A stretch of DNA of 64,000 nucleotides from Candidatus Cloacimonadales bacterium. GTDB taxonomy: Bacteria > Cloacimonadota > Cloacimonadia > Cloacimonadales > JAIOQZ01. The translations under genes and the position numbers were made by a program. Numbering within the stretch: the first letter of the stretch is position 1; each line of letters starts with the position of its first letter. This document shows positions 16,167 to 62,383 of this stretch, one piece after another. The stretch is taken from contig OY762463.1 in NCBI GenBank assembly GCA_963665815.1, positions 3,744,001-3,808,000 on the forward strand, written 5' to 3'. The notes below the pieces were generated by a model. The model was not told the origin of the DNA, ran no database searches, and saw nothing but the letters and a program-made list of their open reading frames with translations.

Positions 16167-16204
16167 GGGCAAGGAAGCCCGGAAAAAACAATCATCAAGG
16201 AGGA
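16167..16204 (+). promoter_or_regulatory. Putative CsrA-binding leader of flagellin 1
   Basis: GGGC-AAGGAA-GCCC hairpin with GGA in the loop, plus a second GGA in the SD sequence. Confidence 0.6.
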
Positions 16205-16209
16205 TGAAC

Positions 16210-17172
16210 ATGTCACTCTTTATTAACAACAACCAGTATGCATTAAATGCATCAAACAACTTAAGATCTCATTACGCTAACATGGGTAAGTCAATTGAAA
16301 GACTTACAACAGGTTTGAGAATTAACTCAGCAAGAGACGATGCTGCCGGAATGGCTGTCAGAGAAGAAATGAGATCTGACATTGCAACTTACAATCAAGG
16401 CATCAGAAATGCAGAAATGGCAATTAACATGCTTCAGACTGCAGAAAGCTCAATGGCAATCATCGATGAAAAGCTCATGAGAATGAAACAACTTGCAGAA
16501 CAAGCTGCAACCGGAACTTACACACATGAGCAAAGACAGATTATTCACTCAGAATTTGCTGCAATGGCTGCCGAAATTGACCGTATCGCTGAATCAACCG
16601 AGTTTGGCGGAAGAAAACTTCTCAACGGTGACTTATCTACAGATGCTCACAACAACATAACTGTTGGTGGATGGCTTCAATCAGGTCCTGCTACATTAAC
16701 AGCAGACAATTATGACAGTGATGGCGAATATCGTCACAATGTTGGTGTAAAAGTTCACTTTGGTCTCACAAACAATCGTCTTGAAGACTATTACTTCATT
16801 AACATTGGAGATATGACAACAAACGGACTGTTTGAGAAGGTTGGAAACGAAACAGATACAGCAGCAAGCAAAATTTCTGTATCAACTCAGCACGTAGCTC
16901 AGATTGCACTTGAGCAACTTGATTCAGCTATTCTTGAGAAAGAACACCAGAGAGCTCACCTTGGTTCAATGATGGTAAGGCTTGAAAACACAATAGCTCA
17001 CCTTCAGTCACAATCAGAAAACCTTCAGGCTGCGGAATCACAGATTTCAGATGTTGATGTAGCATCAGAAATGACAGAATTCGTAAAAAGTCAGGTTTTA
17101 ACACAGGCTGCAGTTGGAATGCTTGCTCAAGCTAATTCTCTTCCACAAATGGCTCTCCAGTTACTTGGATAA
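16210..17172 (+). CDS. fliC: Flagellin (divergent paralogue 1)
   Basis: RLTTGLRINSARDDAAG N-terminal motif and ISDVDVASEM...MLAQANSLPQMALQLLG C-terminal motif. AAGGAGG RBS. Confidence 0.95.
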   Translation: MSLFINNNQYALNASNNLRSHYANMGKSIERLTTGLRINSARDDAAGMAVREEMRSDIATYNQGIRNAEMAINMLQTAESSMAIIDEKLMRMKQLAEQAATGTYTHEQRQIIHSEFAAMAAEIDRIAESTEFGGRKLLNGDLSTDAHNNITVGGWLQSGPATLTADNYDSDGEYRHNVGVKVHFGLTNNRLEDYYFINIGDMTTNGLFEKVGNETDTAASKISVSTQHVAQIALEQLDSAILEKEHQRAHLGSMMVRLENTIAHLQSQSENLQAAESQISDVDVASEMTEFVKSQVLTQAAVGMLAQANSLPQMALQLLG

Positions 17173-17375
17173 TAAAAGAAAGATATAATCTCAAAAACAA
17201 GCTTCAGATAAAAAGAAATAATTACGAATAGAAAACAGATTTTTGACAAGAAAATAGATGTGATGTGATAGATGTGTTACCTGGCACAAATATCAAAACG
17301 CACTCATAGCAGAAGCTAAATTATGAGTAACTCGTTCCCAACACAAGGATGATTCACTCATCAAGGAGGAAAAAG

Positions 17376-18335
17376 ATGTCACTCGTAATTAACCATAATC
17401 TGATGGCTATGAACACAGCAAGAAACCTGACTTCGGCATATGGAAGATTAGGTAATTCAGTAGAAAGACTTTCAACAGGATTGAGAGTAAATTCAGCTGC
17501 AGACGATGCAGCCGGACTCGCAATTCGTGAGAGCATGAGAGCAGAAATTGCTTCTCTTAATCAAGGTGTCCGTAATGCACAGGATGGTATCTCAATGATC
17601 CAGACAGCAGAAGGTGCAATGGCGGTAATTGATGAAAAACTGATTCGTATGAAAGAGCTTGCAGAACAGGCTGCTACAGGAACATATACTAACGATCAAA
17701 GAATGATTATTCATTCTGAGTTCGCAGCAATGGCTTCTGAAATCGATAGAATCGCAACAGCGACAGATTTCAATGGAGTTCATCTGCTTGACGGTAATGT
17801 GTCAATGGCAGGAACAAATGGTCAATGGACCTCAACAAACAACTGGACTGCAACAGAAGGTCTCTGGACAAATAGTTCCGGATGGCAGGAAGTTAATGGT
17901 ACTGCTGCTGCAAACGGAGATGTTACCGGTGGTGTAAAAATCCACTTTGGCTCCGGAAACAGCAGAGCAGAAGACTATTACTTCTTCAGAATCGGTGATA
18001 TGAGAACTTCATCTCTCGGAGTAGGTTCCGAAGATGTTGCTGTAAGTACACAGCACTCTGCACAGCTCGCACTTGAAAGAATAAACACAGCTATCATCAG
18101 GAAAGAAAATGCGCGTGCTCAACTTGGAGCTATTCAAAACAGACTTGAAAACACGATAACTAATATCTCAATTCAGGCTGAGAATATCCAGGCATCTGAG
18201 TCACGTATTTCCGACGTTGATGTAGCTCAAGAAATGACTGAATTTACCCGTAATCAAATCCTTACACAGTCCGCAGTAGGTATGCTTGCACAAGCAAATT
18301 CATTACCTCAGATGGCACTAAGATTGATCGGTTAA
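17376..18335 (+). CDS. fliC: Flagellin 2
   Basis: MSLVINHNLMA...RLSTGLRVNSAADDAAG and conserved C-terminus. Start fixed by the AAGGAGG RBS. Confidence 0.96.
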   Translation: MSLVINHNLMAMNTARNLTSAYGRLGNSVERLSTGLRVNSAADDAAGLAIRESMRAEIASLNQGVRNAQDGISMIQTAEGAMAVIDEKLIRMKELAEQAATGTYTNDQRMIIHSEFAAMASEIDRIATATDFNGVHLLDGNVSMAGTNGQWTSTNNWTATEGLWTNSSGWQEVNGTAAANGDVTGGVKIHFGSGNSRAEDYYFFRIGDMRTSSLGVGSEDVAVSTQHSAQLALERINTAIIRKENARAQLGAIQNRLENTITNISIQAENIQASESRISDVDVAQEMTEFTRNQILTQSAVGMLAQANSLPQMALRLIG

Positions 18336-18467
18336 CTATTGAGTGGATTATTTTCTCATAGATTGGTTTGGTTAAGCCTAGAAATGTCAGCAGATATGCC
18401 ATAATCGTATGAGACATTTGTCTTATACAGTATCATGGAAGTACATTCAACCAATCAAGGAGGAAAG

Positions 18468-19427
18468 ATGTCACTCGTAATAAATCATAACCTGATGGCG
18501 ATGAATACAGCCAGAAATCTTACAACATCCTACGGTAACTTGAGTACATCCGTTCAAAGACTTTCAACAGGACTGCGTATTAATTCAGCAGCAGATGATG
18601 CTGCAGGATTGGCAATCCGTGAAGGTATGAGAGCTGAAATAGCTGCTATTAATCAAGGAGTTAGAAATGCTCAGGATGGTATCTCAATGATCCAGACAGC
18701 TGAAGGTGGTATGGCGGTAATTGACGAAAAGTTAATTCGTATGAAAGAATTGGCAGAACAGGCAGCTACCGGTACATATACAAACGAACAAAGAATGATT
18801 ATTCATTCTGAATTCTCAGCAATGGCCGCAGAAATCGATAGAATCGCAACAGCGACCGATTTCAATGGAATTCACTTATTAAACGGTAACGTTTCAATAG
18901 CTGGATCTAACGGTCAATGGACATCTTCAAATACATGGACAGCAACTGAAGGCTTGCATACAAACAGTAGTGGATGGCAAGAAACTAATGGAACAGCAGC
19001 AGCAAATGGAGACATCACAGGTGGAGCTAAGATTCACTTTGGACCTGCCAATGACAGGGCTGAAGATTATTACTTCATCAGAATCGGTGATGTTCGAACA
19101 AGCGCATTAGGTATCGGAGCATCTGAGGTAGCTGTAAGTACTCAGCACTCAGCTCAGCTTGCTCTCGAAAAACTAAACACAGCAATGGTCCGTAAGGAAA
19201 ATGCTCGTGCTGCACTTGGTGCTGTCCAGAATCGTCTGGAAAACACCATTACAAACTTATCCATCCAAGCTGAAAATGTTCAGGCTGCAGAATCGAGAAT
19301 TTCTGATGTTGACGTAGCACAAGAAATGACCGAGTTCACAAGAAATCAGATACTGACACAATCCGCAGTAGGTATGTTAGCGCAAGCTAATTCATTACCA
19401 CAAATGGCACTCAGACTTATAGGTTAG
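18468..19427 (+). CDS. fliC: Flagellin 3
   Basis: Same motifs as flagellin 2. AAGGAGGAAAG-ATG. Confidence 0.96.
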   Translation: MSLVINHNLMAMNTARNLTTSYGNLSTSVQRLSTGLRINSAADDAAGLAIREGMRAEIAAINQGVRNAQDGISMIQTAEGGMAVIDEKLIRMKELAEQAATGTYTNEQRMIIHSEFSAMAAEIDRIATATDFNGIHLLNGNVSIAGSNGQWTSSNTWTATEGLHTNSSGWQETNGTAAANGDITGGAKIHFGPANDRAEDYYFIRIGDVRTSALGIGASEVAVSTQHSAQLALEKLNTAMVRKENARAALGAVQNRLENTITNLSIQAENVQAAESRISDVDVAQEMTEFTRNQILTQSAVGMLAQANSLPQMALRLIG

Positions 19428-19510
19428 ATTGAGAGGCTTCTTTCCATAATTCGAGATTGGTTTGGTTCCCCGGCAAACAGCAGAATGTCGGCTGTATAAG
19501 ACTAATGTCT

Positions 19511-19548
19511 TATATTAGCAAGGATGACTAATATACCAATCAAGGAGG
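19511..19548 (+). promoter_or_regulatory. Putative CsrA-binding leader of flagellin 4
   Basis: TATATTAG-CAAGGATGA-CTAATATA hairpin with ANGGA in the loop, upstream of the SD. Equivalent CAAGGATG (17344) and CATGGAAG (18434) precede flagellins 2 and 3. Confidence 0.6.
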
Positions 19549-19552
19549 AAAG

Positions 19553-20512
19553 ATGTCACTCGTAATAAACCATAATTTGATGGCGTCGAATACTGCAAGA
19601 AATCTTACTGATTCTTACGGTCGTCTCGGCACGTCAGTGATGAGATTGTCTACAGGGCTACGTATCAATTCAGCAGCGGACGACGCTGCAGGTCTCGCAA
19701 TACGTGAAGGAATGAGAGCTGAAGTTGCATCATTGAATCAGGGAGTTAGAAATGCCCACGATGGTATTTCCATGATTCAAACAGCAGAAGGTGCAATGGC
19801 AGTTATCGATGAAAAACTTATACGTATGAAAGAGTTAGCAGAGCAAGCCGCTACCGGAACGTATACTAACGAGCAACGCTTGATTATACATTCCGAGTTT
19901 TCAGCAATGGCAGCTGAAATTGATAGAATAGCCACAGCCACAGATTTCAACGGGGTTAAGCTTCTGAATGGAAATGTCTCTATAGCCGGATCCGGTGGTT
20001 CCTGGTCTTCAACGAATACCTGGAGCGCTACAGAAGGCTTATGGACAAACAGTAGTGGTTGGCAGGAAGTTTCTGGTTCTGCCGATGCAAACGGTAATGT
20101 TACCGGTGGTGCAAAAATTCACTTCGGACCTGCTAATGACAGGGCTGAAGATTACTACTTTGTACGTATAGGTGATGTGCGAACAAGTGCTTTGGGAATT
20201 GGCTCAGCTGATGTTGCAGTCAGTACTCAGGATGCTGCACAGGCTGCTCTCGAGAAAATCAATACGGCTATGATTCGTAAAGAGAACGCTCGGGCTGCAC
20301 TCGGTGCTGTTCAAAACCGATTGGAGAACACAATAACTAACTTGTCAATTCAAGCTGAGAATATTCAGTCAGCAGAATCTCGTGTCTCAGATGTGGACGT
20401 AGCTCTGGAAATGACAGAATTTGTGAGAAATCAAATTCTAACACAGGCTGCAGTCGGAATGCTTGCACAAGCTAATTCGTTGCCTCAAATGGCTTTGCGT
20501 CTGATAGGATAA
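19553..20512 (+). CDS. fliC: Flagellin 4
   Basis: Same motifs as flagellin 2. AAGGAGGAAAG-ATG. Confidence 0.96.
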   Translation: MSLVINHNLMASNTARNLTDSYGRLGTSVMRLSTGLRINSAADDAAGLAIREGMRAEVASLNQGVRNAHDGISMIQTAEGAMAVIDEKLIRMKELAEQAATGTYTNEQRLIIHSEFSAMAAEIDRIATATDFNGVKLLNGNVSIAGSGGSWSSTNTWSATEGLWTNSSGWQEVSGSADANGNVTGGAKIHFGPANDRAEDYYFVRIGDVRTSALGIGSADVAVSTQDAAQAALEKINTAMIRKENARAALGAVQNRLENTITNLSIQAENIQSAESRVSDVDVALEMTEFVRNQILTQAAVGMLAQANSLPQMALRLIG

Positions 20513-20928: not shown

Positions 20929-21817
20929 CTTCGATCTCTTTGATTTCTTTATATGAAAAGCTGCCTTTTGGAGCATTACGTATTGTTCTTATCAGTGATT
21001 TGTTTTTAGATTTAAAAAAATTAGGTTTTCTAATATTGAATATTTTTAATCTGTTCAATTTATTTATTTTGAAACCTATGCATAGAAAAAAAACATCTTT
21101 GTTCTCGTCAACACAGAATAAGGTCATTAAATATCCGGATTCATTGATTCTGATTCCCCAGTCTCTTATTGAATGTATACTGAATTCAGGCATATTCTCC
21201 AATTTGAAATCCTGAAAATAACTTTTTAATGATATAAGATTATTTTCTCCGGTTTTCTTTATGAGAAGCTTAATAAAGTTACCCACATTTTCATATTGCT
21301 GATAAGTAAGAATATTCTTTGTCCAGGTTAAACCTTGTTCTTTCAGTATTGCAGCTTTCAAATTTCTCCTCATCCTTTGAACATATTTCTGAGCAGTTTT
21401 CAGCTTTATATCATTTTTTTTTGCAATTTCAGCAGAACTAAGTTGTTTAACGAAATAGTATTTATATATTTTTAAATCCAGTTTACTAAGGTGTTGCCTA
21501 AGTACTTCAAAAGGAATATCATCCTTATGTTTTTCAATTTCCTCATCATATGAAGGAATCTCATAGTTCACTTGTTCCTTAAGTGCTTCAAGTGATCTTA
21601 CTCTTTCACGTTTTTTTAATACATTTAGAGACATGTTATAGGCTACTTTGTACAACCAGCTCTTAGGGTGTTTTATCTCCTGTTCCTGAATGTAAAACTT
21701 ATAAAAGGCGTTCTGAACAATATCTTCTGCATCATCCGTATTTGAAGTTATACTGTATGCATAGTTAAAAATCTGGTATCTCAACTGAGCAAACAGTTGA
21801 TCAGTTATTTTTGTCAT
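20909..21817 (-). CDS. ECF-type sigma70 factor with about 140-aa C-terminal extension
   Basis: Region 2 (YAYSIT..DDAEDIVQNAF..KSWLYKVAYN) and region 4 HTH (LSSAEIAK..LKTAQKYVQRMRRNLK). Start overlaps the selA stop. Confidence 0.85.
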   Translation of the reverse strand: MTKITDQLFAQLRYQIFNYAYSITSNTDDAEDIVQNAFYKFYIQEQEIKHPKSWLYKVAYNMSLNVLKKRERVRSLEALKEQVNYEIPSYDEEIEKHKDDIPFEVLRQHLSKLDLKIYKYYFVKQLSSAEIAKKNDIKLKTAQKYVQRMRRNLKAAILKEQGLTWTKNILTYQQYENVGNFIKLLIKKTGENNLISLKSYFQDFKLENMPEFSIHSIRDWGIRINESGYLMTLFCVDENKDVFFLCIGFKINKLNRLKIFNIRKPNFFKSKNKSLIRTIRNAPKGSFSYKEIKEIEEKKRLQ

Positions 21818-23192
21818 ACAGGGAAACCTTCAGGATCCGGGCAACAGAATCAGCAATGTACTGAAAATCTTTTGTATCTATACACAGAACATCAATAAGA
21901 ATAGTTCCTTCTCTTAACACACTCAGAATCGGCTTTTGTAGTTTCAGAAGGTCAAAAAAAAGTGAGTCTGTCTGTCTTGTATTTATATTGAGTTTCACAG
22001 CATAGCTGTTTCTCTTAAAATCAGGTAATGTACCACCACCACATCGTCCGTAGCTTTCTGTTACATCAGAATTTACATTCTCTCCCCTAAGAGTATTTTT
22101 CAAGTTTTCAGCTTTTAACTTCACATCATCATCAGCAAGATTGAGGAGTTTGAATAAGGGCGTATTTTCCATAAGCCTTTCTTCAGAGAAATAATTGGAT
22201 ATAACAGAAATTAACGAGCTGATTGTCAGCTTACCAATTCTATAAGTACGCATAAGCTGGGAGGAGTGAATTTTTTTAACACACTCTGATTTACCTGAGA
22301 TTATGCCAGCCTGTGGTCCACCAAGCAGCTTATCACAACTGAATGTAACAATATCTGCTCCGGCATCAATACAACTTTTTACGTCAGGTTCCTCCAGAGG
22401 AAGAGATTCCGGTTTTCTGAGTAATCCTGAACCAATATCATAGATGACAGGAATGTTGTGTTTTTTGCCAAGCTTAATCAGTTCTTTAAGCTCAACATCA
22501 CTTGTAAAACCGGTTATATGGTAATTAGACTGATGCACTTTAATTATTGCTCCGGTATTCTCGTTGATTGCATTTTCGTAATCCTTGAGATGAGTTCTAT
22601 TAGTAGTGCCTATTTCAACCATTTCAGCACCACTGAGTTTCATTATCTCCGGAATACGGAAAGAACCGCCTATTTCCACGAGTTCACCACGAGACACAAT
22701 CACTTCTTTGTCTTTTGCCAGAGTGTTAAGAGTAAGGAATACAGCTGCAGCATTGTTGTTGACTGCTATGGAATCTTCTGCACCGGTAACATATTTCAGT
22801 ATAGCTTTCAAATGATAGTTACGGTTACCGCGACGACCTTTATCCAGATCAAATTCCAGATTTGAGTAACCGGATACTCTTTCTGCCAGATCATTAATCA
22901 CATTAGGTCCTAAAGGTGATCTGCCAAGATTTGTATGAATGATGATTCCTGATCCGTTAATAACAGGTTTTAATCCGGGTTCGGACAGCTTCTTGATGAA
23001 ATCATAAACGGAATCGATCCAGAACTGTTCGTTAGCATCAGGAATATTGTCTTTCAGCAGCTTATTTTTTTCCAGCTTTATTGCTTCTCTGGCACAATAG
23101 ACTAAAAAGGAATGATCGAAAGTGGATTTGAATTCTGCAAACATGTCATCTTGCAGGAGTTTTTCTATACTTGGAATATTAAGTGCATTCAT
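21801..23192 (-). CDS. selA: L-seryl-tRNA(Sec) selenium transferase
   Basis: VINGSGIIIHTNLGRS, YSNLEFDL, VNNNAAA, SRGELVEIGGSFRIP, EIGTTNRT and DKLLGGPQAG (PLP Lys). ATG at 23192 with GAGGA RBS; the track start at 23285 runs through the tRNA. Confidence 0.96.
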   Translation of the reverse strand: MNALNIPSIEKLLQDDMFAEFKSTFDHSFLVYCAREAIKLEKNKLLKDNIPDANEQFWIDSVYDFIKKLSEPGLKPVINGSGIIIHTNLGRSPLGPNVINDLAERVSGYSNLEFDLDKGRRGNRNYHLKAILKYVTGAEDSIAVNNNAAAVFLTLNTLAKDKEVIVSRGELVEIGGSFRIPEIMKLSGAEMVEIGTTNRTHLKDYENAINENTGAIIKVHQSNYHITGFTSDVELKELIKLGKKHNIPVIYDIGSGLLRKPESLPLEEPDVKSCIDAGADIVTFSCDKLLGGPQAGIISGKSECVKKIHSSQLMRTYRIGKLTISSLISVISNYFSEERLMENTPLFKLLNLADDDVKLKAENLKNTLRGENVNSDVTESYGRCGGGTLPDFKRNSYAVKLNINTRQTDSLFFDLLKLQKPILSVLREGTILIDVLCIDTKDFQYIADSVARILKVSLYDKNN

Positions 23193-23206
23193 ATTTTCCT
23201 CATTAT

Positions 23207-23301
23207 TGGCCGCGAGGGCAGGAATCGAACCTGCCACAGACGGTGTTATCCGCCTGCTACTGATTTTGCAGACCAGTTGGACCACCAGATCCGTCCTCGC
23301 T
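23207..23301 (-). tRNA. selC: tRNA-Sec-type (selC-like) tRNA with GCA (Cys) anticodon
   Basis: Minus strand: (A)GCGAGG AC GGATC-TGGT-GGTCC AA CTGGT-CTGCAAA-ATCAG TA GCAGGCGG-ATAACA-CCGTCTGT G GCAGG-TTCGATT-CCTGC CCTCGCG G CCA. 4-nt YGGU D-loop, long variable arm, G73, encoded CCA, immediately upstream of selA. Confidence 0.88.
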
Positions 23302-23340
23302 ATTAAGAAAGATTGAATATCTTATTCAATTTATTTACTA

Positions 23341-26040
23341 CTAATAATTATTGGCAATCAATTTTTTAACTTGTACGGCTGTAACTTTGTATTCAGGGAT
23401 TTTTGCGACTGGATCAATTTCTTTGTGGGTAAGTCGGTTCGCAGGACTTTCATGGAAATGAAAAGAAATGAAAACCACACCTTTTTTTATTCTATCAGTA
23501 ACTTCAGCTGCAATTGTAATTTCGCCTCTTGCTGATGAAACGGAAACGAATTCGCCATTATCAATACTTCTTTGAGCTGCGTCAAATGGAGATATTTTTA
23601 TTGTTGGAGGTGATAACCGATCGAACTCTTCACTTTTCCTTATCATTGTCCCTGTATGGAATTGATGCGCCAGACGTCCGGTAGTAAGAATCAGTGGGTA
23701 TTCACGGCTGCAAATTTCATAAGGTGGAACATAGTCCACGATTTTAAACTTTGGAAGTCCAATTGGAAAGCTATTTTCGTGAAGAATACTTGTACCAGGG
23801 TGTTCAATATCCGGGCATGGCCACTGAATTCCGTCTTCTTCGGTTCTATCAGATGTAATACCTCTATAGAATGGGATAGTCTCGTTGATTTCTCTGGTAA
23901 TATCCTCAGAATTCGAGTATTCCCAGTTATAACCCATTGCATTAGCGAGGTCAGTAACAATCTTCCAGTCATTTTCAACTAATCCAGGAGCATCAGTTGC
24001 TTTTCTCAGCTTCTGCACTCTACGCTCTGTGTTTGTGAAATGTCCTGTCTTTTCAGAGAAACAGGCTGCCGGTAGAACAATGTCAGCCATTTCAGCAGTT
24101 TCGGTCATGAATATATCCTGAACAATCAGCAAATCAAGGTTTTTAAGAGCTTTAATAGTGTGGGTCTGGTCCGGATCACTCAATACAGGATTTTCTCCCA
24201 TAACGTATATAGCTTTAATATCTCCAGATATGGCACTGTCCAGCATTTCTGTGATCGTTAATCCCGACTTATTGCTAATGTCAGATTTCCAGTAATCTGC
24301 GAATCTTTCTATAGCTTCAGGATTGGATACTTTTGCATAGCCCGGAAGAGTATCCGGAAGACAACCAACATCACAAGCACCCTGTACATTGGATTGTCCC
24401 CTGAGTGGATTGACTCCAGCTCCGGGAATACCAATGTTCCCACACATTAACTGTAGATTTGCCAGAGCGAGTACATTCTGGTATCCAGATGTGTGCTGCG
24501 TTATGCCCATTGCAAAATAAACAGCAGCGGTTTTTGCTTTTCCGAACAGTTCTCCAATCTCGTAAAGTGTTGAAGCTTTAATACCTGCTATCTCTTCAAT
24601 CGTTTCAGGTGCATACTTTGTCATAAGCATCTCATTTTTAAAGAGAGTCCATGAGTCCAAGTCAGTACGAGACTTAATATACTCTGGATCGAACAGGTTC
24701 TTTTTAATAATGACATGTATGATTGAGTTAATCAAAGCAGTATCTGATCCCGGTTTCTGGGATGCATAGATTGAAGCAAATTTTGCCAATTCAATTTTTT
24801 TGGGATCAATTACAATAAGCTTGGTGTTATGAAACTTAACAGCCTGCTTGATTTTGTTTCCAATTATTGGATGAGCGGCTGTTGTGTCAGAACCAATTAC
24901 AAGGATTGCATCAGCTTTATGGATATCCTGTAAATTGTTCGTCATTGCACCACTTCCAAGAGATTCTGCAAGACCTGCAACTGTTGACGCATGACATAAT
25001 CTTGCACAATGATCAACATTATTATTACCTATGCAAGTCCGAAAAAATTTCTGGAAAAGATAATTATCTTCGTTTGAACACTTTGCTGAAGAAAAACCTC
25101 CGATAGCATTACTGCCGTTTTCATTAATAATCTTTTGGAATTTATCAGCAATGATTTCGATTACAGTATTCCAGTCTGTCGGAACATGTTTTCCATTTTG
25201 TTTTATAAGTGGAGTTGTCAAACGTCTGTCAGAATGAACAAATCTGAATCCGAATCTGCCTTTACTGCATAGCATACCGTTATTGACTTCAGAATCCTCA
25301 ACTCCCCTAATGCGAATGATCTCACCGGTTTTCTTGAGTGTATGAATTTCAATGTTGCATCCCACTCCACAATATGTGCAGATGGATCTGATTTTATCAA
25401 TCTCTCTGTCTCGATATGCTCTTTTAGAGTTTTTGTCGTAAATTGCTCCTACAGGACAAAGCTGAGAGCATTCTCCACATTGAACACAACTTGATTCACC
25501 GAGTTTTTTATTGTAGTCTATGGTAATTCTTGTATTTCCACCTCTGTCAGCGAAGTTGATTACTTCGTTAACAACAGTATTGTTACAACCGCTTACACAA
25601 TTCCCACAACTGATGCATTTATCAATGTCTTTTACGATGAACTCAGATGATGTGTCAGGTTTATTAAGTCTTTCACCAATAACATAATCATCCATCTCTG
25701 AATAGAATACTGCATCCTGTAATGCACAATGAAGGTTTGCCGGACAGTTTAGACAGCTATGATTACCTGATTCAAGAATAAGTTTAAGGATCATGGTAAC
25801 TGTATGTCTAACCATTTTGGACTTGGTTCTTACTTCCATGTTCGGTGAGACTGGAGTGGAACATGCAGGTACGAGCCTATTGGCAACTTCAACAAGACAG
25901 ACGCGGCAGTTACCGCAAATTCCTGTTTTAGGGTGATAACACAAGTGAGGAATATACATATTGTTCCTCATGGCGCATTGCAGAATTGTCTCGTTTTCTT
26001 TTGCCTGCAGAACCTGATTGTTAATTTTTATGGAAAACAT
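23341..26040 (-). CDS. fdhF: Formate dehydrogenase alpha subunit (Mo/W-bisPGD) with N-terminal NuoG-like Fe-S domains
   Basis: IPHLCY..CRVC [2Fe-2S], two CxxCxxC ferredoxin motifs, CTYCGVGC, DHCARLCHAST active-site motif, PLRGQSNVQGACD and C-terminal AKIPEYKVTAV. Confidence 0.95.
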   Translation of the reverse strand: MFSIKINNQVLQAKENETILQCAMRNNMYIPHLCYHPKTGICGNCRVCLVEVANRLVPACSTPVSPNMEVRTKSKMVRHTVTMILKLILESGNHSCLNCPANLHCALQDAVFYSEMDDYVIGERLNKPDTSSEFIVKDIDKCISCGNCVSGCNNTVVNEVINFADRGGNTRITIDYNKKLGESSCVQCGECSQLCPVGAIYDKNSKRAYRDREIDKIRSICTYCGVGCNIEIHTLKKTGEIIRIRGVEDSEVNNGMLCSKGRFGFRFVHSDRRLTTPLIKQNGKHVPTDWNTVIEIIADKFQKIINENGSNAIGGFSSAKCSNEDNYLFQKFFRTCIGNNNVDHCARLCHASTVAGLAESLGSGAMTNNLQDIHKADAILVIGSDTTAAHPIIGNKIKQAVKFHNTKLIVIDPKKIELAKFASIYASQKPGSDTALINSIIHVIIKKNLFDPEYIKSRTDLDSWTLFKNEMLMTKYAPETIEEIAGIKASTLYEIGELFGKAKTAAVYFAMGITQHTSGYQNVLALANLQLMCGNIGIPGAGVNPLRGQSNVQGACDVGCLPDTLPGYAKVSNPEAIERFADYWKSDISNKSGLTITEMLDSAISGDIKAIYVMGENPVLSDPDQTHTIKALKNLDLLIVQDIFMTETAEMADIVLPAACFSEKTGHFTNTERRVQKLRKATDAPGLVENDWKIVTDLANAMGYNWEYSNSEDITREINETIPFYRGITSDRTEEDGIQWPCPDIEHPGTSILHENSFPIGLPKFKIVDYVPPYEICSREYPLILTTGRLAHQFHTGTMIRKSEEFDRLSPPTIKISPFDAAQRSIDNGEFVSVSSARGEITIAAEVTDRIKKGVVFISFHFHESPANRLTHKEIDPVAKIPEYKVTAVQVKKLIANNY
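24965..24996 (-). promoter_or_regulatory. SECIS-like hairpin downstream of the FDH active-site UGU codon
   Basis: TGT CAT GCG TCA ACA GTT GCA GGT CTT GCA: TGCA-GGTCT-TGCA stem-loop at the same offset as E. coli fdhF UGA..GUUGCAGGUCUGCA. Confidence 0.5.
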
Positions 26041-26100: not shown

Positions 26101-27954
26101 TTAATCTTGCTCTGCAGCTTCAGCTTGAGCTTTTCTGAATTGAATGATTTCTTCTCGCATTCCGGCGTTCTTATTAACAGCATTAACTGGACATACATCC
26201 ACGCAGTTTCCACATTTAACACAATCAATTTGTTTGATAGTGTATTTTTCTTCTCTGGAACCGGAGATACAGTTTGTCGGGCAGTTTTTAGCACAAAGTG
26301 AACAGCCGATACATTTATCTTTGTCTATATCAAAGTTGATGAGATCAAGACAAACAAGTGTTGAACATTTATTTTCTTTGATATGTTCTTCGTATTCATG
26401 TCTGAAGTATCTTATTGTACTTAAAACAGGATTTGGTGCAGTTTGACCAAGACCACAGAGTGATGTTTGTTTTATAACATTACCAAGCTCAATAAGTCTT
26501 TCGATGTCACCTTCTTTACCTCTACCTGATGTAATGTTATTCAAGATTTCGTGCATATGTTTAAGACCTATTCTACATGGTGTACATTTACCGCATGATT
26601 CTTCAACTGAGAATTCCAGGAAGAATTTGGCAACGTTAACCATACAGTTACTGTCGTCCATAACAATAACACCACCGGAACCCATCATCGCACCTTTTTC
26701 AAGGAGTGACTGATAGTCTATCTGAACGTCAAGGTGATCGTTTGTGAGGCATCCGCCTGAAGGTCCGCCAAGTTGAACAGCTTTAAATGCTTTTCCATTA
26801 GGAATTCCACCACCAACTTCAAAAATAAGTTCTTTAAGACTGATTCCCATTGGAACTTCAACAAGACCGGTATTTTTAACATCACCTGTAAGAGCGAATA
26901 CTTTTGTACCTTTACTTGTTTCAGTACCCATTTGAGAGAACCATTCAGCACCTTTTGTGAATATTGTAGGAAGATTAGCATATGTTTCAACATTGTTAAC
27001 TGCTGTTGGTTTTCCCCAGAGTCCTTCTACTGATGGATATGGTGGTTTTACGGATGGTTGACCTCTTTTACCTTCGATAGAAGCGATAAGAGCTGTTTCT
27101 TCTCCACAGACGAAAGCACCGGCACCGGTTCGTACTTCAGCTTTGAAAGAGAAGTCTGAACCGAAGATGTTATCACCGAGGATACCGAGTTCAAGTGCCT
27201 GACTTATAGCTTGTCTGATACGTTTTATTGCAAGCGGGTATTCAGCTCTGATGTAGAAATATCCTTCGGAAGCTCCGATACAGTATGCAGCAATTGCCAT
27301 ACCTTCAAGTACTCGATGAGGATCTCCTTCAAGGAGTGATCTGTCCATGAATGCTCCAGGGTCACCTTCGTCACCATTACAGATAACGTATTTCTGATCT
27401 GCAACAGGTTTTCTTGTGAGTTCCCATTTCAACGCAGTAGGGAAGCCACCGCCACCACGACCACGTAGTCCTGATTCTTTCACAACACTGATACCATCTT
27501 CTGGTGACAGTTGTGTAACGAGCTTACCAAGAGCTTCGTAACCTCCGAGAGCGATATATTCTTCAATACTTTCAGGATCAAGGTGTCCGCAGTTTTCCAG
27601 AGCAACTTTAACCTGTTTCTTATAGAAAGGAATTTCTTTCTGGTCTACAATAACTTTATTTTCATCTTCTTTAAGCATAAGACGTTGAACCGGACGACCT
27701 TTTATAAAGTGTTCCATTACCATTTCTTCAACATCTTCTACGGTAACTTTCTGATAAAATGTGCCATCAGGATAAATCTTGATAACAGGACCGTAGTCAC
27801 AAGGTCCCATACAGCCTGTTTCAATAATGTTTATTTCATTAAGAATATCATTGGCTTCAAGAACCTGAATCATTTTTTCTTTAATCTTAAGTGCTCCTGC
27901 GGAAACACAACCTGAACCGCAGCATATTAGAACATCAATTCTTTTAACTGGCAT
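26101..27954 (-). CDS. nuoF: NADH-binding flavoprotein subunit HydB/NuoF-like (bifurcating-type, extra Fe-S domains)
   Basis: N-terminal thioredoxin-like 2Fe-2S, SGLRGRGGGGFP, CNGDEGDPGAFMDR, GAFVCGEETAL, ESCGKCTPCR and C-terminal 2x[4Fe-4S]. Confidence 0.93.
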   Translation of the reverse strand: MPVKRIDVLICCGSGCVSAGALKIKEKMIQVLEANDILNEINIIETGCMGPCDYGPVIKIYPDGTFYQKVTVEDVEEMVMEHFIKGRPVQRLMLKEDENKVIVDQKEIPFYKKQVKVALENCGHLDPESIEEYIALGGYEALGKLVTQLSPEDGISVVKESGLRGRGGGGFPTALKWELTRKPVADQKYVICNGDEGDPGAFMDRSLLEGDPHRVLEGMAIAAYCIGASEGYFYIRAEYPLAIKRIRQAISQALELGILGDNIFGSDFSFKAEVRTGAGAFVCGEETALIASIEGKRGQPSVKPPYPSVEGLWGKPTAVNNVETYANLPTIFTKGAEWFSQMGTETSKGTKVFALTGDVKNTGLVEVPMGISLKELIFEVGGGIPNGKAFKAVQLGGPSGGCLTNDHLDVQIDYQSLLEKGAMMGSGGVIVMDDSNCMVNVAKFFLEFSVEESCGKCTPCRIGLKHMHEILNNITSGRGKEGDIERLIELGNVIKQTSLCGLGQTAPNPVLSTIRYFRHEYEEHIKENKCSTLVCLDLINFDIDKDKCIGCSLCAKNCPTNCISGSREEKYTIKQIDCVKCGNCVDVCPVNAVNKNAGMREEIIQFRKAQAEAAEQD

Positions 27955-27969: not shown

Positions 27970-28338
27970 TTACTTGCTCTCGGTTGAGATTACATAGTCT
28001 TCACAAACAAAACCGTTAATAATATGACTTTCAACAACTTTGACAGCTTTTTCAGAATCCATTTTTCCATAAGTTATTGTTGGCTTTCCTTCTTCAATAA
28101 TATCAACAACAGGCTCCATGGAAGATAAGCCTTTTTCACCTGTTTGAGTAACAAGTACATCAGTGAGATTATGTCTTGTAATTTCGTTGAGGAAAGTTTT
28201 CATAACATCTCTGGCTCCCATAGCAATTCCGGATGTTCCCATTCCAACAACAATTTTGATTCTATGATCTGAACTTCGGAGCTTCATTTCATTCTGTGCT
28301 TTTTCTCTGATTTTTCTCAATTCTTCCAAAGTTTTCAT
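27970..28338 (-). CDS. HydD/HndB-like thioredoxin-fold ferredoxin subunit (Cys ligands absent)
   Basis: MKTLEELRKIRE..IVVGMGTSGIA..TGEKGLSSMEPVV aligns by eye with HydD-type proteins. Confidence 0.8.
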   Translation of the reverse strand: MKTLEELRKIREKAQNEMKLRSSDHRIKIVVGMGTSGIAMGARDVMKTFLNEITRHNLTDVLVTQTGEKGLSSMEPVVDIIEEGKPTITYGKMDSEKAVKVVESHIINGFVCEDYVISTESK

Positions 28339-28907
28339 TAGATTTCCTCCAGTTTTGTCATTTTCAATCCTTCAAGTAATGTCTCTTCAATAAAAGATAT
28401 CACATCAGGATATGTAATCGGTATACCACCGAGTTCTTCCTTTATCTCTTTTGTTTTCAATTCAAATACTTTTTTACCTGAAAATCCGATTCTCTCATAA
28501 TAAATATCAAAGTCTGCTTCAGAATGACCGATTATTGCCCCAAGCAAAGTATCTGTTATGTTTCCGAGAGGCATACGATCAATACTATCAAGTTGGAAAA
28601 CAGCTTTAAGTTTAGTGCCTTCACCCGGTTTGCTGTAAACATCAAAACTGCCATTGCAGTTTTCAGCATTCTGCTTGAGTAAAGGTACGCCTAAGCCAAT
28701 CTTCTTTTGTCTTTCGACTTTGGTTGTGTAAAACGGATTTACAACATGTTCCAGAACTTCTTCGTCCATTCCGGTTCCATCATCTTCAACTCCGATCGTA
28801 ATAGTGTTGCGTCTAATGTCAGCTTTAATGGACACCTTGACACAAGTTGCTTTTGCTCGTACAGAGTTTTCTATCAGATCGAGAATATGAAGTGATAAAT
28901 CCTGCAT
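28338..28907 (-). CDS. HATPase_c (histidine-kinase-like) protein of hydrogenase operons
   Basis: LSLHILDLIENSVRA, EDDGTGM, NPFYTTK, GLGVP and IDRMPLG motifs. Confidence 0.88.
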   Translation of the reverse strand: MQDLSLHILDLIENSVRAKATCVKVSIKADIRRNTITIGVEDDGTGMDEEVLEHVVNPFYTTKVERQKKIGLGVPLLKQNAENCNGSFDVYSKPGEGTKLKAVFQLDSIDRMPLGNITDTLLGAIIGHSEADFDIYYERIGFSGKKVFELKTKEIKEELGGIPITYPDVISFIEETLLEGLKMTKLEEI

Positions 28908-29401
28908 TAAACAGAAGTCTCTTTAATTTTACTGATTATTTCTTTGATCTGTTTTTTAGTTTCAATTCTTCCAAAAGTATCTTCACCAATTACAAATACA
29001 GGTGCAAGAGAGCATGCTCCAACACAACGTACTGATGTAAGTGTGAACATATTGTCTTCGGTAGTTTCTCCGAGTTTTACATTAAGTTCATCGCTAAGCA
29101 TCTGGATAAGGCGTTCTGCACCTTTAACATAGCAGGCTGTACCTGTACATACATTAATGATGTGTTTTCCTCTTGGTTTCATTGAAAAGAAGTTATAGAA
29201 TGTGACAACACCATAAATTTGATTTATTGGTATACCTGTTTTATCTGCGATAAATTCCTGAACTTCCATTGGTAAATAACCAAATATCTCCTGAGCTTTA
29301 TGAAGAATTTCAATAAGCGGATTTCTGATCTTCATTTTTTCTTCGATTACTGCTTCAAGTTTCTTATAAAGCAAGTTATCTGTTGATTGACTATGTGTCA
29401 T
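28907..29401 (-). CDS. nuoE: HydC/NuoE-like [2Fe-2S] subunit
   Basis: LHKAQEIFGYLP, GVVTFYNFF, CTGTAC and CVGAC motifs. Confidence 0.93.
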   Translation of the reverse strand: MTHSQSTDNLLYKKLEAVIEEKMKIRNPLIEILHKAQEIFGYLPMEVQEFIADKTGIPINQIYGVVTFYNFFSMKPRGKHIINVCTGTACYVKGAERLIQMLSDELNVKLGETTEDNMFTLTSVRCVGACSLAPVFVIGEDTFGRIETKKQIKEIISKIKETSV

Positions 29402-61842: not shown

Positions 61843-62340
61843 ATGAGTAATTCAGATCAAGATATTTACTGGATGAAGAAAGCCCTTGCTATTGCGGAAA
61901 AGGGTTTCCAATCAGGGAATATTCCTGTTGGAGCTGTTCTTGTTAAGGACAACCAACTGATCGCACAAGCTCATAATCTAAAAGAAAATGTTCTGCAGCA
62001 TGCAGAAAAAATAGTTGTTGAGAGTGTAATTGCTGAAGGAGAGAAATACCTTTACGATTACACTCTCTATGTTACTGTTGAACCATGCAGTATGTGTGCC
62101 GGTATAATTGTCTGGAGTCGTGTTGGCAGGCTTGTTATTGGGGCTCAAGATACTAAAGCCGGAGCATGTGGTTCTGTATATAACATTCCGGAAGACAGAC
62201 AACTTAATCATAATCCGGAAGTAGTAAGAGGTGTTTTAAAAGAAGAATGCTCTCATTTGATGAGTGAATTTTTCAGGGAAAAGAGAAAAGAACGGAGAGA
62301 TGCCGGAGCGGTTGAACGGGGTGGTCTCGAAAACCATTGA
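61843..62340 (+). CDS. tadA: tRNA adenosine(34) deaminase
   Basis: PVGAVLV, HAE, YVTVEPCSMCAG and KAGACGS motifs. Confidence 0.88.
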   Translation: MSNSDQDIYWMKKALAIAEKGFQSGNIPVGAVLVKDNQLIAQAHNLKENVLQHAEKIVVESVIAEGEKYLYDYTLYVTVEPCSMCAGIIVWSRVGRLVIGAQDTKAGACGSVYNIPEDRQLNHNPEVVRGVLKEECSHLMSEFFREKRKERRDAGAVERGGLENH

Positions 62341-62383
62341 TCCAGCGATGGGTCCCAGGGTTCGAATCCCTGTCTCTCCGCCA
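62294..62383 (+). tRNA. tRNA-Ser(CGA)
   Basis: GGAGAGA..GTGGT-CTCGAAA-ACCAT, long variable arm, CAGGG-TTCGAAT-CCCTG, TCTCTCC-G-CCA. Confidence 0.95.

What the first reader, a model, noticed from the sequence alone, without database searches (positions are those of the whole stretch)
21801..26040. fdh-selC(GCA)-selA: selenocysteine machinery apparently retargeted to a cysteine codon
Seen: a tRNA with tRNA-Sec hallmarks (4-nt TGGT D-loop on an extended D-stem, 8-bp variable arm, G73) sits between fdh and selA. Its anticodon loop is CT-GCA-AA (reads UGC/UGU), not UCA. The FDH codon at the position where FdhF carries Sec (DHCARL-X-H, residue 349, 24994-24996) is UGU, and selA looks intact. Known: G73 plus a long variable arm are SerRS determinants, whereas CysRS needs U73, so this differs from selC* tRNA-Cys. 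Sec at Cys codons has been reported only rarely (e.g. Aeromonas salmonicida). Inference: the paired changes UCA->GCA and UGA->UGU suggest FDH is a hidden selenoprotein that annotation would call Cys, with ordinary Cys-tRNA as fallback when selenium is scarce. Alternatives are SelA-dependent Ser->Cys conversion on tRNA, or a decaying Sec system.
Basis: partly seen in the sequence, partly recalled or inferred. Interest (0 to 1): 0.92.

Follow-up and report, generated by a model that had tools for sequence, protein, structure and literature searches.

The report
Selenocysteine tRNA that reads cysteine codons
A Cloacimonadales bacterium carries a selenocysteine-type tRNA whose anticodon reads cysteine codons, so its formate dehydrogenase is probably a selenoprotein that ordinary annotation cannot see; the principle is already in print.

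Summary
A 95-nt tRNA-Sec (Rfam 52.8 bits, gathering score 47) with anticodon GCA and discriminator G73 lies between fdh and selA. FDH residue 349 is TGT at 24994-24996. The one-contig genome has selA, selB, selD, a normal U73 tRNA-Cys and one cysS, and no UCA tRNA-Sec.

Among 41 Cloacimonadales genomes, 18 have only the GCA tRNA, 10 only UCA and 4 both. Three gene families switch with the anticodon: FDH, SelD and a secreted thioredoxin-like family. They carry in-frame TGA only where a UCA tRNA exists, and TGT/TGC elsewhere. In GCA genomes a hairpin with compensatory changes follows the codon in FDH, the thioredoxin-like genes and one SelD subfamily.

Most likely mechanism (0.8): SerRS charges the tRNA, SelA makes Sec, and SelB delivers it to UGY plus SECIS. 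Ordinary Cys-tRNA is the fallback.

It is not selC* tRNA-Cys. Passages in two later papers say that Mukai 2016 (not held here) described a "Cloacimonetes type" 7/5 tRNA-Sec and UGC/UGU recoding, so this is a new member of a known kind. Possibly new: the extra targets, and a second selB in the four genomes with both tRNAs.

The parts
23207..23301 (-). selC-like tRNA-Sec of the Cloacimonetes type (7/5 branch, 95 nt), anticodon GCA
   Evidence: Cloverleaf tested on 35 distinct Cloacimonadota copies: 94.2% of cells paired, 10 pairs with compensatory changes.
23267..23269 (-). Anticodon GCA, which reads UGC and UGU
   Evidence: Column 33 is the only anticodon column that differs between the GCA and UCA copies.
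23210..23210 (-). Discriminator G73, followed by encoded CCA at 23207-23209
   Evidence: G in 35 of 35 copies; CCA encoded in 34 of 35.
23341..26040 (-). Formate dehydrogenase alpha subunit with an N-terminal NuoG-like Fe-S domain, 899 aa
   Evidence: TIGR01591 793.6 bits against a cut-off of 666.25.
24994..24996 (-). Codon 349, TGT, at the position that is TGA in the G011 and G035 orthologues. Proposed Sec/Cys dual-use codon.
24964..24982 (-). SECIS-like hairpin. The stem starts 12 nt after the codon; the GGUCU loop is at 24971-24975.
   Evidence: Alignment A1 of 16 orthologues: 96.4% paired, 3 pairs with compensatory changes, covariation 0.304 against 0.090 in shuffles. Lowest codon entropy of 63 conserved degenerate columns. 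In G000 alone it is weak: -3.3 kcal/mol, z -0.34.
21801..23192 (-). selA, L-seryl-tRNA(Sec) selenium transferase, 463 aa from the ATG at 23192
   Evidence: TIGR00474 522 bits, profile positions 3-453 of 455.
26101..27954 (-). NuoF/HydB-like flavoprotein subunit upstream of fdh
   Evidence: TIGR01959 494 bits.
27970..28338 (-). Small 2Fe-2S ferredoxin-like subunit
   Evidence: NF041612, E 1.3e-07.
28338..28907 (-). Histidine-kinase-like ATPase domain protein inside the operon
   Evidence: Hits to HK catalytic domains only. The same gene order is seen in G025.
28907..29401 (-). NuoE/HoxE-like subunit
   Evidence: NF005747 173 bits.

Best explanation
The locus is a working selenocysteine-insertion module whose target codon has moved from UGA to the cysteine codons UGU/UGC.

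Proposed steps:
- The tRNA has G73 and a long variable arm, so SerRS charges it with serine (inferred from identity rules).
- SelA, encoded 14 nt downstream, converts Ser to Sec using selenophosphate from SelD (inferred).
- SelB binds Sec-tRNA and the hairpin 12 nt after FDH codon 349, and delivers Sec to that UGU (inferred).
- When Sec-tRNA is lacking, ordinary Cys-tRNA(GCA) with EF-Tu reads the same codon. The result is a full-length Cys enzyme rather than a truncated one (inferred).
- The near-universal 1:72 mismatch in these 12-bp tRNAs probably keeps them off EF-Tu, as it does for initiator tRNA (speculative; the analogy is recalled).

Shown here: the tRNA's architecture, the complete machinery, the linked switching of anticodon and codon in three gene families, and selection on the downstream hairpins.

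In this genome the same logic points to at least three more sites outside the window. These are selD Cys15 and two T9SS-secreted thioredoxin-like proteins.
For: Machinery in G000:
- G000 is one contig, 98.66% complete. It has selB (650 aa with a SelB-wing_3 domain), selD, selA, one tRNA-Sec-like gene with GCA and none with UCA. It also has a normal tRNA-Cys with U73 and G1:C72, and a single cysS.
- selU, yqeB and yqeC were not found, so SelD has no other known use there.

tRNA types among 41 Cloacimonadales genomes:
- 18 have only the GCA tRNA, 10 only UCA, 4 both, and 9 have none above the cut-off.

Linked switching in three gene families:
- FDH: TGA in 2 of 2 genes of UCA-only genomes; TGT/TGC in 15 of 15 genes of genomes that have a GCA tRNA.
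- selD: 1 TGA in 11 of 11 hits in UCA-only genomes or G015; none in the other 25 hits.
- Secreted thioredoxin-like family: 1 TGA in all 20 N-terminus-covering rows from UCA-only genomes or G015; none in 47 rows from GCA-only or genus-g3 genomes (my count). The TGA position in the CxxC motif was checked in 7 of those 20 genes.

Hairpins after the UGY codon carry compensatory changes:
- FDH: 96.4% paired, 0 of 500 shuffles reach the covariation score.
- selD subfamily: 100% paired.
- Thioredoxin-like family: 94.1% paired, covariation 0.46 against 0.18.
- In FDH, the four lowest-entropy columns among 63 conserved degenerate codon columns are +6 to +9.
- Orthologues in Sec-less genomes (G009, G020, G032) lack the hairpin.
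- The recoded Cys codon of the thioredoxin-like family is TGC in 17 of 17 genes. The neighbouring Cys codon is TGC in 6 of 17.

Retention of the machinery:
- GCA-only genomes keep selA in 15 of 18, selB in 14 of 18 and selD in 17 of 18. All 3 selA misses and 3 of the 4 selB misses are in assemblies 68-88% complete; the fourth selB miss (G016) and the selD miss (G038) are 98% complete but fragmented.
- G003, G005, G016 and G025 keep the GCA tRNA and selA with no FDH. This fits the existence of other targets.
Against: - There is no protein or selenium data for this or any Cloacimonadales organism.
- The G000 FDH hairpin is weak on its own: 5 bp, -3.3 kcal/mol, and 68 of 200 shuffles fold as well. 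The MFE fold of the 63 nt does not use it. Its support is comparative only.
- G022 has a GCA tRNA, but its divergent FDH (50% identity) has no hairpin.
- Two selD subfamilies in GCA genomes (GCACKI and GGCSAKLSP) have no hairpin. Not every former Sec site stays recoded.
- The genomes are related, so the shuffle controls overstate significance.
- Serylation, conversion by SelA and exclusion from EF-Tu and CysRS are inferred from E. coli-type identity rules. They were not tested.
- No RNA run was available.
Confidence: 0.8

Rival explanations
1. The tRNA delivers cysteine, not selenocysteine. Either CysRS charges it through the GCA anticodon, as in selC* tRNA-Cys, or SelA converts Ser to Cys with a sulfur donor. 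SelB then brings Cys-tRNA to the SECIS-marked codon.
For: GCA is a major CysRS identity element (passages in PMC5389517 and PMC8762117). The reference lists seen cite a 2018 paper whose title reports SelB delivering Cys with a non-canonical tRNA-Cys; I could not read it.
Against: G73 is present in 35 of 35 copies, whereas selC* tRNAs and this genome's own tRNA-Cys have U73. There is only one cysS and no CysRS paralogue. Delivering Cys to a codon that Cys-tRNA already reads would give no benefit. It would not explain retention of selD (17 of 18 GCA-only genomes) when selU, yqeB and yqeC are absent.
Confidence: 0.07
2. This is a decaying Sec system. After FDH changed from Sec to Cys, the tRNA drifted to GCA, and the machinery and hairpins are relics on their way out.
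For: Sec has been lost in whole families of the order: f2 and f3 have no tRNA-Sec, selA, selB or selD. Some former Sec sites in GCA genomes have lost their hairpins. The G000 FDH hairpin is weak.
Against: The GCA tRNA occurs in 25 genomes, 17 genera and 7 families, with intact cloverleaf covariation. selA, selB and selD have intact reading frames. The hairpins show compensatory changes at synonymous sites. Only anticodon position 34 differs between the two types, and it always reads G or U. This is not what drift would produce.
Confidence: 0.04
3. The tRNA and SelB act on these mRNAs for a purpose other than insertion, for example selenium-responsive pausing or regulation of translation at UGY-hairpin sites. 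The residue inserted would always be Cys from the normal tRNA.
For: Nothing direct. It would be compatible with conserved hairpins and retained SelB.
Against: It gives no reason for the anticodon to match the codon exactly. It does not explain why the recoded codon is TGC in 17 of 17 thioredoxin-like genes. It does not explain why selA sits next to the tRNA.
Confidence: 0.04

Closest known systems
Cloacimonetes-type tRNA-Sec and Sec recoding of UGC/UGU (Mukai et al. 2016, Angew Chem; known here only through passages in PMC5330540 and PMC8124441)
   Same: A 7+5 (12-bp) acceptor/T branch, a single-nucleotide linker before the D-stem and G73. Those passages state that anticodon variants of tRNA-Sec pair with UGC/UGU codons in selenoprotein genes. 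The phylum is the same.
   Different: I could not read the paper. I therefore cannot say whether it reports the GCA anticodon in this phylum, the selD and thioredoxin-like targets, or the second selB in genomes with both tRNAs.
Aeromonas salmonicida subsp. pectinolytica UGU-Sec system
   Same: Sec is inserted at a Cys codon of FDH by a tRNA-Sec with a 12-bp branch and its own SelA. This was confirmed experimentally according to the review passages seen.
   Different: The anticodon is ACA and the codon UGU only (PMC10573291 passage). It is confined to a small group of Aeromonas. Here the anticodon is GCA, both UGU and UGC are used, and the trait spans 17 genera.
selC* tRNA-Cys (Mukai et al. 2017, PMC5389517)
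   Same: A tRNA-Sec-like body, a GCA (or UCA) anticodon and a long variable arm. The same pattern scan finds both kinds.
   Different: selC* has U73, a modified 8/4 branch with bulge A51a and a dedicated CysRS. Here there is G73 in 35 of 35 copies, a 7/5 branch with a 5-bp T-stem in 35 of 35, and a single cysS.
E. coli fdhF UGA-SECIS-SelB recoding
   Same: The same enzyme position, the same spacing of four codons before the V-A-G-L hairpin, and a GGUC-type apical loop (the E. coli sequence is recalled, not fetched). The apical loop lies within the 16-37 nt range given in PMC10778597.
   Different: The codon is a sense codon. The competitor is therefore Cys-tRNA with EF-Tu rather than RF2, and failure gives a Cys enzyme rather than a truncated protein.

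Membership tests
Bacterial tRNA-Sec (selC) | Scores above Rfam RF01852's gathering threshold | tested here: met
   52.8 bits against 47. It is the only such hit in the genome.
Bacterial tRNA-Sec (selC) | 6-bp D-stem with a 4-nt D-loop, and a long variable arm | tested here: met
   The D-loop is UGGU. The D-stem is 94.3% paired over 35 copies, and in G000 the sixth pair is C.A. The variable arm has 8 bp and is 93.6% paired.
Bacterial tRNA-Sec (selC) | G73 discriminator | tested here: met
   35 of 35 copies.
Bacterial tRNA-Sec (selC) | 13-bp acceptor/T branch (8/5) | tested here: not met
   The branch is 7/5 = 12 bp, with 1:72 unpaired in 32 of 35 copies. This matches the 'Cloacimonetes type' variant described in a PMC5330540 passage.
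Bacterial tRNA-Sec (selC) | UCA anticodon | tested here: not met
   The anticodon is GCA. Close paralogues with UCA occur in 84 of 232 genomes of the phylum.
Bacterial tRNA-Sec (selC) | Serylated by SerRS, converted by SelA, bound by SelB and not by EF-Tu | not testable with these tools
   Inferred from the identity elements and from adjacency to selA.
selC* tRNA-Cys | U73 discriminator | tested here: not met
   G73 here. Most of the Nitrospirota, Bacillota and other non-Cloacimonadota hits from the same scan end in U73, usually followed by CCA; one Dehalococcoidia hit (L093) has G73.
selC* tRNA-Cys | Modified 8/4 branch with bulge A51a | tested here: not met
   The 5-bp T-stem is invariant in 35 of 35 copies and there is no bulge.
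selC* tRNA-Cys | Accompanied by a dedicated second CysRS | tested here: not met
   A single cysS hit in G000 and in all but one of the 40 genomes with a hit; G016 gives two partial hits on different contigs.
Bacterial SECIS element | Hairpin inside the ORF just after the recoded codon, with the apical loop 16-37 nt downstream | tested here: met
   The loop lies at +20 to +24 in FDH and +17 to +21 in selD.
Bacterial SECIS element | Structure conserved through compensatory changes | tested here: met
   Synonymous-site constraint is shown.
Bacterial SECIS element | Follows an in-frame UGA | tested here: not met
   UGU in G000. The same hairpin follows UGA in the G011 and G035 orthologues.
Bacterial SECIS element | Bound by the SelB C-terminal winged helix | not testable with these tools
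   G000 SelB has SelB-wing_3 at residues 593-636. Binding was not tested.
Sec-decoding trait | selA, selB and selD are all present and have intact reading frames | tested here: met
Formate dehydrogenase alpha (TIGR01591) | Scores above the curated cut-off and has the active-site motif | tested here: met
   793.6 bits against 666.25. The motif is DHCARL-C-H.

The most novel reading that the evidence does not exclude
A large part of the order Cloacimonadales (17 of 66 sampled genera of the phylum) may run a hidden selenoproteome written entirely in cysteine codons. It would include FDH, some SelD genes and a multi-copy family of T9SS-secreted thioredoxin-like proteins. Four sampled genomes would run two Sec channels side by side in one cell, UGA with tRNA(UCA) and UGY with tRNA(GCA). 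They share one SelA but have two SelB paralogues. That would be a natural pair of parallel Sec-insertion systems, with the UGY sites being facultative Sec/Cys positions tuned by selenium supply.
Probability: 0.5. Interest if true: 0.75.

Novelty: new member of a known kind. Interest (0 to 1): 0.55.

Why it matters
Sec written as a Cys codon cannot be seen by gene callers or by selenoproteome surveys, which look for in-frame UGA. 'Cloacimon', 'sense codon' and (in the 2026 review) 'non-UGA' gave no hit in two reviews of prokaryotic selenoproteins, from 2022 and 2026.

If the reading holds, formate and hydrogen metabolism in Cloacimonadota depends on selenium in a way that annotation hides. These bacteria are common in anaerobic digesters according to my own recollection.

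The sites are also natural examples of a codon with two meanings and a safe fallback. The 12-bp tRNA, its SelA and the paired SelBs would interest people who engineer selenoprotein production, as the Aeromonas parts already do.

Tried and rejected
- The Mukai 2016 paper (DOI and PMC4833512), PMC5772603 and PMC6103700 are not held. Prior claims for Cloacimonetes were therefore taken only from passages in PMC5330540, PMC8124441, PMC10778597 and PMC10573291.
- Searches for 'Cloacimonetes' together with the Mukai title found only PMC5330540.
- Earlier scan notes returned nothing in three look-ups.
- Sequencing runs: no RNA holder was listed. The three DNA holders are one sample and are contigs only.
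- A mechanical scan of G000 looked for in-frame TGY followed by a hairpin of at least 6 bp with an NGUNN loop. It gave 33 rows. Only the selD site and the site at G000:C1:781683 were followed up and found conserved. The rest look like chance (short ORFs, AT-only stems) and were not examined further. The scan missed FDH and the second thioredoxin-like gene because their stems have 5 bp.
- I first placed the recoded codon of the WCxxC subfamily at the second Cys. Spacing, and the TGA position in UCA genomes, moved it to the first Cys.
- SelB phylogeny (quick tree, SH-aLRT only). SelBs do not split cleanly by anticodon. One clade is all UCA, but G018/G036 (UCA) nest among GCA SelBs and G026/G031 (UCA) are basal. 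I therefore dropped the idea of one SelB clade per anticodon.
- One fold (L050) used wrong coordinates and is ignored.
- A systematic search of G000 for in-frame UGA selenoprotein genes was not done.
Full report
**What is in the window**

ARAGORN finds a 95-nt tRNA at 23207-23301 on the minus strand and calls it tRNA-Cys(gca). Rfam's tRNA-Sec model scores it 52.8 bits against a gathering score of 47.
- The anticodon loop reads CUGCAAA.
- The D-arm is a UGGU tetraloop on a 5-bp stem plus a C.A sixth position.
- The variable arm has 8 bp.
- The 3' end is ...CCUCGC-G-G-CCA.

The tRNA sits 39 nt after the stop of an 899-aa formate dehydrogenase alpha subunit (23341-26040). That gene scores 793.6 bits on TIGR01591 against a cut-off of 666.25. 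The tRNA also lies 14 nt before the ATG of selA (21801-23192), which scores 522 bits on TIGR00474.

Upstream are NuoF-like, ferredoxin-like, HK-like ATPase and NuoE-like genes.

**The rest of the genome**

The window lies in a one-contig genome of 3.96 Mb, 36% G+C, 98.66% complete.
- It has selB (650 aa, with GTPase, beta-barrel and SelB-wing_3 domains).
- It has selD (345 aa).
- It has a normal 74-nt tRNA-Cys(GCA) with G1:C72 and U73.
- It has one cysS.
- The tRNA in the window is the only tRNA-Sec-like gene, so there is no UCA copy.
- selU, yqeB and yqeC were not found. Sec synthesis is therefore the only known use left for SelD.
- Contigs of three runs from one sample, possibly the source sample, match 23150-25100 without a single difference.

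**Taxon and tRNA architecture**

Record titles of matching public contigs place the relatives in Candidatus Cloacimonadales.

I collected 35 distinct tRNA-Sec-like sequences from the group. All are exactly 95 nt. A 7/5 cloverleaf fits them: 94.2% of cells are paired, against 35-46% when partners are slid, and 10 pairs show compensatory changes.
- G73 is invariant and CCA is encoded in 34 of 35.
- The 1:72 position is unpaired in 32 of 35 (C.A, A.G or A.A).
- The copies differ in the anticodon only at position 34, which is G or U.

This matches the 'Cloacimonetes type tRNA-Sec' (7+5, one linker nucleotide fewer) that a passage of PMC5330540 attributes to Mukai et al. 2016.

The same pattern scan also found about 50 tRNAs from Nitrospirota, Bacillota, Thermodesulfobacteriota and other phyla. 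Most of these end in U73, usually followed by CCA. They are the selC* tRNA-Cys of PMC5389517. The Cloacimonadales tRNA is not one of them. It has G73, no T-stem bulge and no second CysRS.

**The anticodon and the codons change together**

Among 41 genomes of the order, 18 have only the GCA tRNA, 10 only the UCA tRNA, 4 both, and 9 none above the cut-off.

*FDH.* The search gave 17 hits.
- The two hits in UCA-only genomes (G011, G035) have TGA at the active site.
- The other 15 have TGT or TGC. Fourteen of these are in GCA-only genomes and one is in G015, which has both tRNAs.

*selD.* The search gave 36 hits.
- All 11 hits in UCA-only genomes or G015 carry one TGA.
- The other 25 carry none.

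*A third family.* A mechanical scan of G000 for in-frame TGY followed by a strong hairpin with an NGUNN loop put a 744-aa T9SS-secreted protein at the top, at G000:C1:781683. It has a C-S-S-C motif followed by an 8-bp stem with a GGUCU loop, the same loop as in FDH.
- In this family all 20 rows that cover the N-terminus in UCA-only genomes or G015 carry one TGA.
- None of the 47 such rows in GCA-only or genus-g3 genomes does (my count).
- The TGA sits in the CxxC motif. It is the second Cys in the subfamily of the G000 gene (G011, G035). It is the first Cys in the W-C-x-x-C subfamily (G015, G018, G019, G030, G040). I checked the position in these 7 of the 20 genes.
- G000 has a second member at G000:C1:3944912.

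This third family explains why G003, G005, G016 and G025 keep the GCA tRNA and selA although they have no FDH at all; selB was also found in three of them but not in G016.

**The hairpins are under selection in the UGY genes**

*FDH (16 orthologues).* A 7-bp stem with a GGUCU loop starts 12 nt after the codon.
- 96.4% of cells are paired and three pairs show compensatory changes.
- The covariation score is 0.304 against 0.090 in shuffles, with 0 of 500 shuffles as high.
- Over 301 codons there are 63 conserved four- or six-fold degenerate columns. The four lowest codon entropies are at +6 to +9.
- The only variants there are the G000/G001 codons. They swap C:G for A:U and G.U for U:A at synonymous sites.

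*selD.* One subfamily of 10 genes, G000 included, has a 7-bp stem with a CGUGY loop. It is 100% paired, and one pair reads A:U in six genes and G:C in four.

*W-C-x-x-C genes (17 genes).* The hairpin is 94.1% paired, with a covariation score of 0.46 against 0.18.
- The recoded codon is TGC in 17 of 17.
- The second Cys codon is TGC in only 6 of 17.
- Genome-wide use of TGC in G000 is 36%.

*Control.* Orthologues in genomes that lack the whole Sec machinery (G009, G020, G032) have the CxxC motif but no hairpin.

The genomes are related, so the shuffle figures overstate significance. The slid-partner controls and the repeated independent double changes are the stronger argument.

**Results that cut the other way**

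- The G000 FDH hairpin is weak alone: -3.3 kcal/mol, and 68 of 200 shuffles fold as well. Relatives reach -10 to -11.5 kcal/mol. The 63-nt MFE fold does not use it.
- G022 has a GCA tRNA, but its divergent FDH has no hairpin.
- Two selD subfamilies in GCA genomes have no hairpin. Some former Sec sites have simply become Cys.
- No RNA or protein data exist.

**Mechanism**

The best reading (0.8) is Sec insertion at UGY plus SECIS. SerRS charges the tRNA through G73 and the long variable arm (identity rules as in the PMC5389517 passage). SelA and SelD make Sec-tRNA. SelB docks on the hairpin and delivers it.

The codon is a sense codon, so a shortage of Sec-tRNA gives a Cys enzyme rather than a truncated one. 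The 1:72 mismatch may replace the 13-bp branch as the feature that keeps the tRNA off EF-Tu. This would matter for a tRNA that could otherwise put Ser or Sec at every Cys codon. That last point is my inference by analogy with initiator tRNA, which I recall rather than tested.

**Evolution and extent**

In 232 species genomes of the phylum, 25 have the GCA type, spread over 17 of 66 genera and 7 families. 84 have the UCA type.

The GCA tRNAs share their variable arm with UCA tRNAs of family f12 and of family f17, which lies outside the order. The GCA form therefore looks derived from that body by a change from U34 to G.

selA is single-copy everywhere. The four genomes with both tRNAs (G003, G006, G007, G015) have two selB genes. 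In G003 one selB lies in a tRNA(GCA)-selA-selB operon and the other lies next to tRNA(UCA).

The SelB tree does not split cleanly by anticodon.

**Novelty**

Two things are in print according to passages in PMC8124441, PMC10778597, PMC5330540 and PMC10573291. One is Sec at UGC/UGU through anticodon variants of tRNA-Sec. The other is a Cloacimonetes-type tRNA-Sec. The experimentally confirmed case, in Aeromonas, uses ACA and UGU.

I could not read the 2016 paper or any supplements. I therefore cannot say whether the GCA anticodon in this phylum, the selD and thioredoxin-like targets, or the two SelBs are new.

'Cloacimon' and 'sense codon' gave no hit in either of two selenoproteome reviews (2022, 2026), nor did 'non-UGA' in the 2026 one.

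I file the finding as a new member of a known kind, real and well supported by comparison, with moderate interest.

Noticed in passing
G000:C1:781683 (+) and G000:C1:3944912 (-), outside the window (L229:1284; L230): Two T9SS-secreted proteins of about 745-795 aa have an N-terminal CxxC motif followed by a SECIS-like hairpin with a GGUCU or GGUCG loop. Their relatives in UCA-tRNA genomes carry an in-frame TGA in the motif. This looks like a multi-copy family of secreted thioredoxin-like selenoproteins. Pfam matches only the C-terminal PKD and sorting domains.
   Followed up: yes
G000:C1:3915889 (L009:1531-1533), outside the window: The selD Cys15 codon TGC is followed 9 nt later by a 7-bp hairpin (UUAGGGC-CGUGC-GCCUUAA). 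The hairpin is conserved with compensatory changes in 10 selD genes of genomes that carry a GCA tRNA. Relatives in genomes with a UCA tRNA have TGA at this position.
   Followed up: yes
L066 and L075 (G003); also G006, G007, G015: Four genomes carry both a GCA and a UCA tRNA-Sec. They have two selB genes but one selA. In G003 one selB lies in a tRNA(GCA)-selA-selB operon and the other lies next to tRNA(UCA). The second SelB of genus g3 sits on a very long branch.
   Followed up: partly
window 23301 and 23211 (tRNA positions 1 and 72): The first acceptor pair is mismatched (A.G here; C.A, A.G or A.A in 32 of 35 relatives). This resembles the C1.A72 mismatch of bacterial initiator tRNA. It may be an EF-Tu antideterminant.
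   Followed up: partly
L093 (a Dehalococcoidia record): A tRNA-Sec-like gene outside Cloacimonadota also combines a GCA anticodon with G73, and has an 8-bp acceptor stem. It may be an independent case of the same recoding.
   Followed up: no
L073 (G025): G025 has the same NuoE/HK-like/ferredoxin/NuoF gene order as the window. Where fdh should be there are only about 730 nt before the GCA tRNA, and no FDH is found anywhere in that genome.
   Followed up: partly
window 16204-20512 (+): Four tandem flagellin genes of 319-330 aa each lie just beside the ECF sigma factor gene and the selA-selC-fdh operon.
   Followed up: no
L001:102-689 (-), next to selB in G000: A 195-aa ORF that looks MobA-like to me (not scanned against any family library) overlaps the end of selB. 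That would fit selB serving a molybdopterin enzyme.
   Followed up: no
window 62294-62383 (+): An ordinary tRNA-Ser(CGA), the only other tRNA in the window.
   Followed up: no
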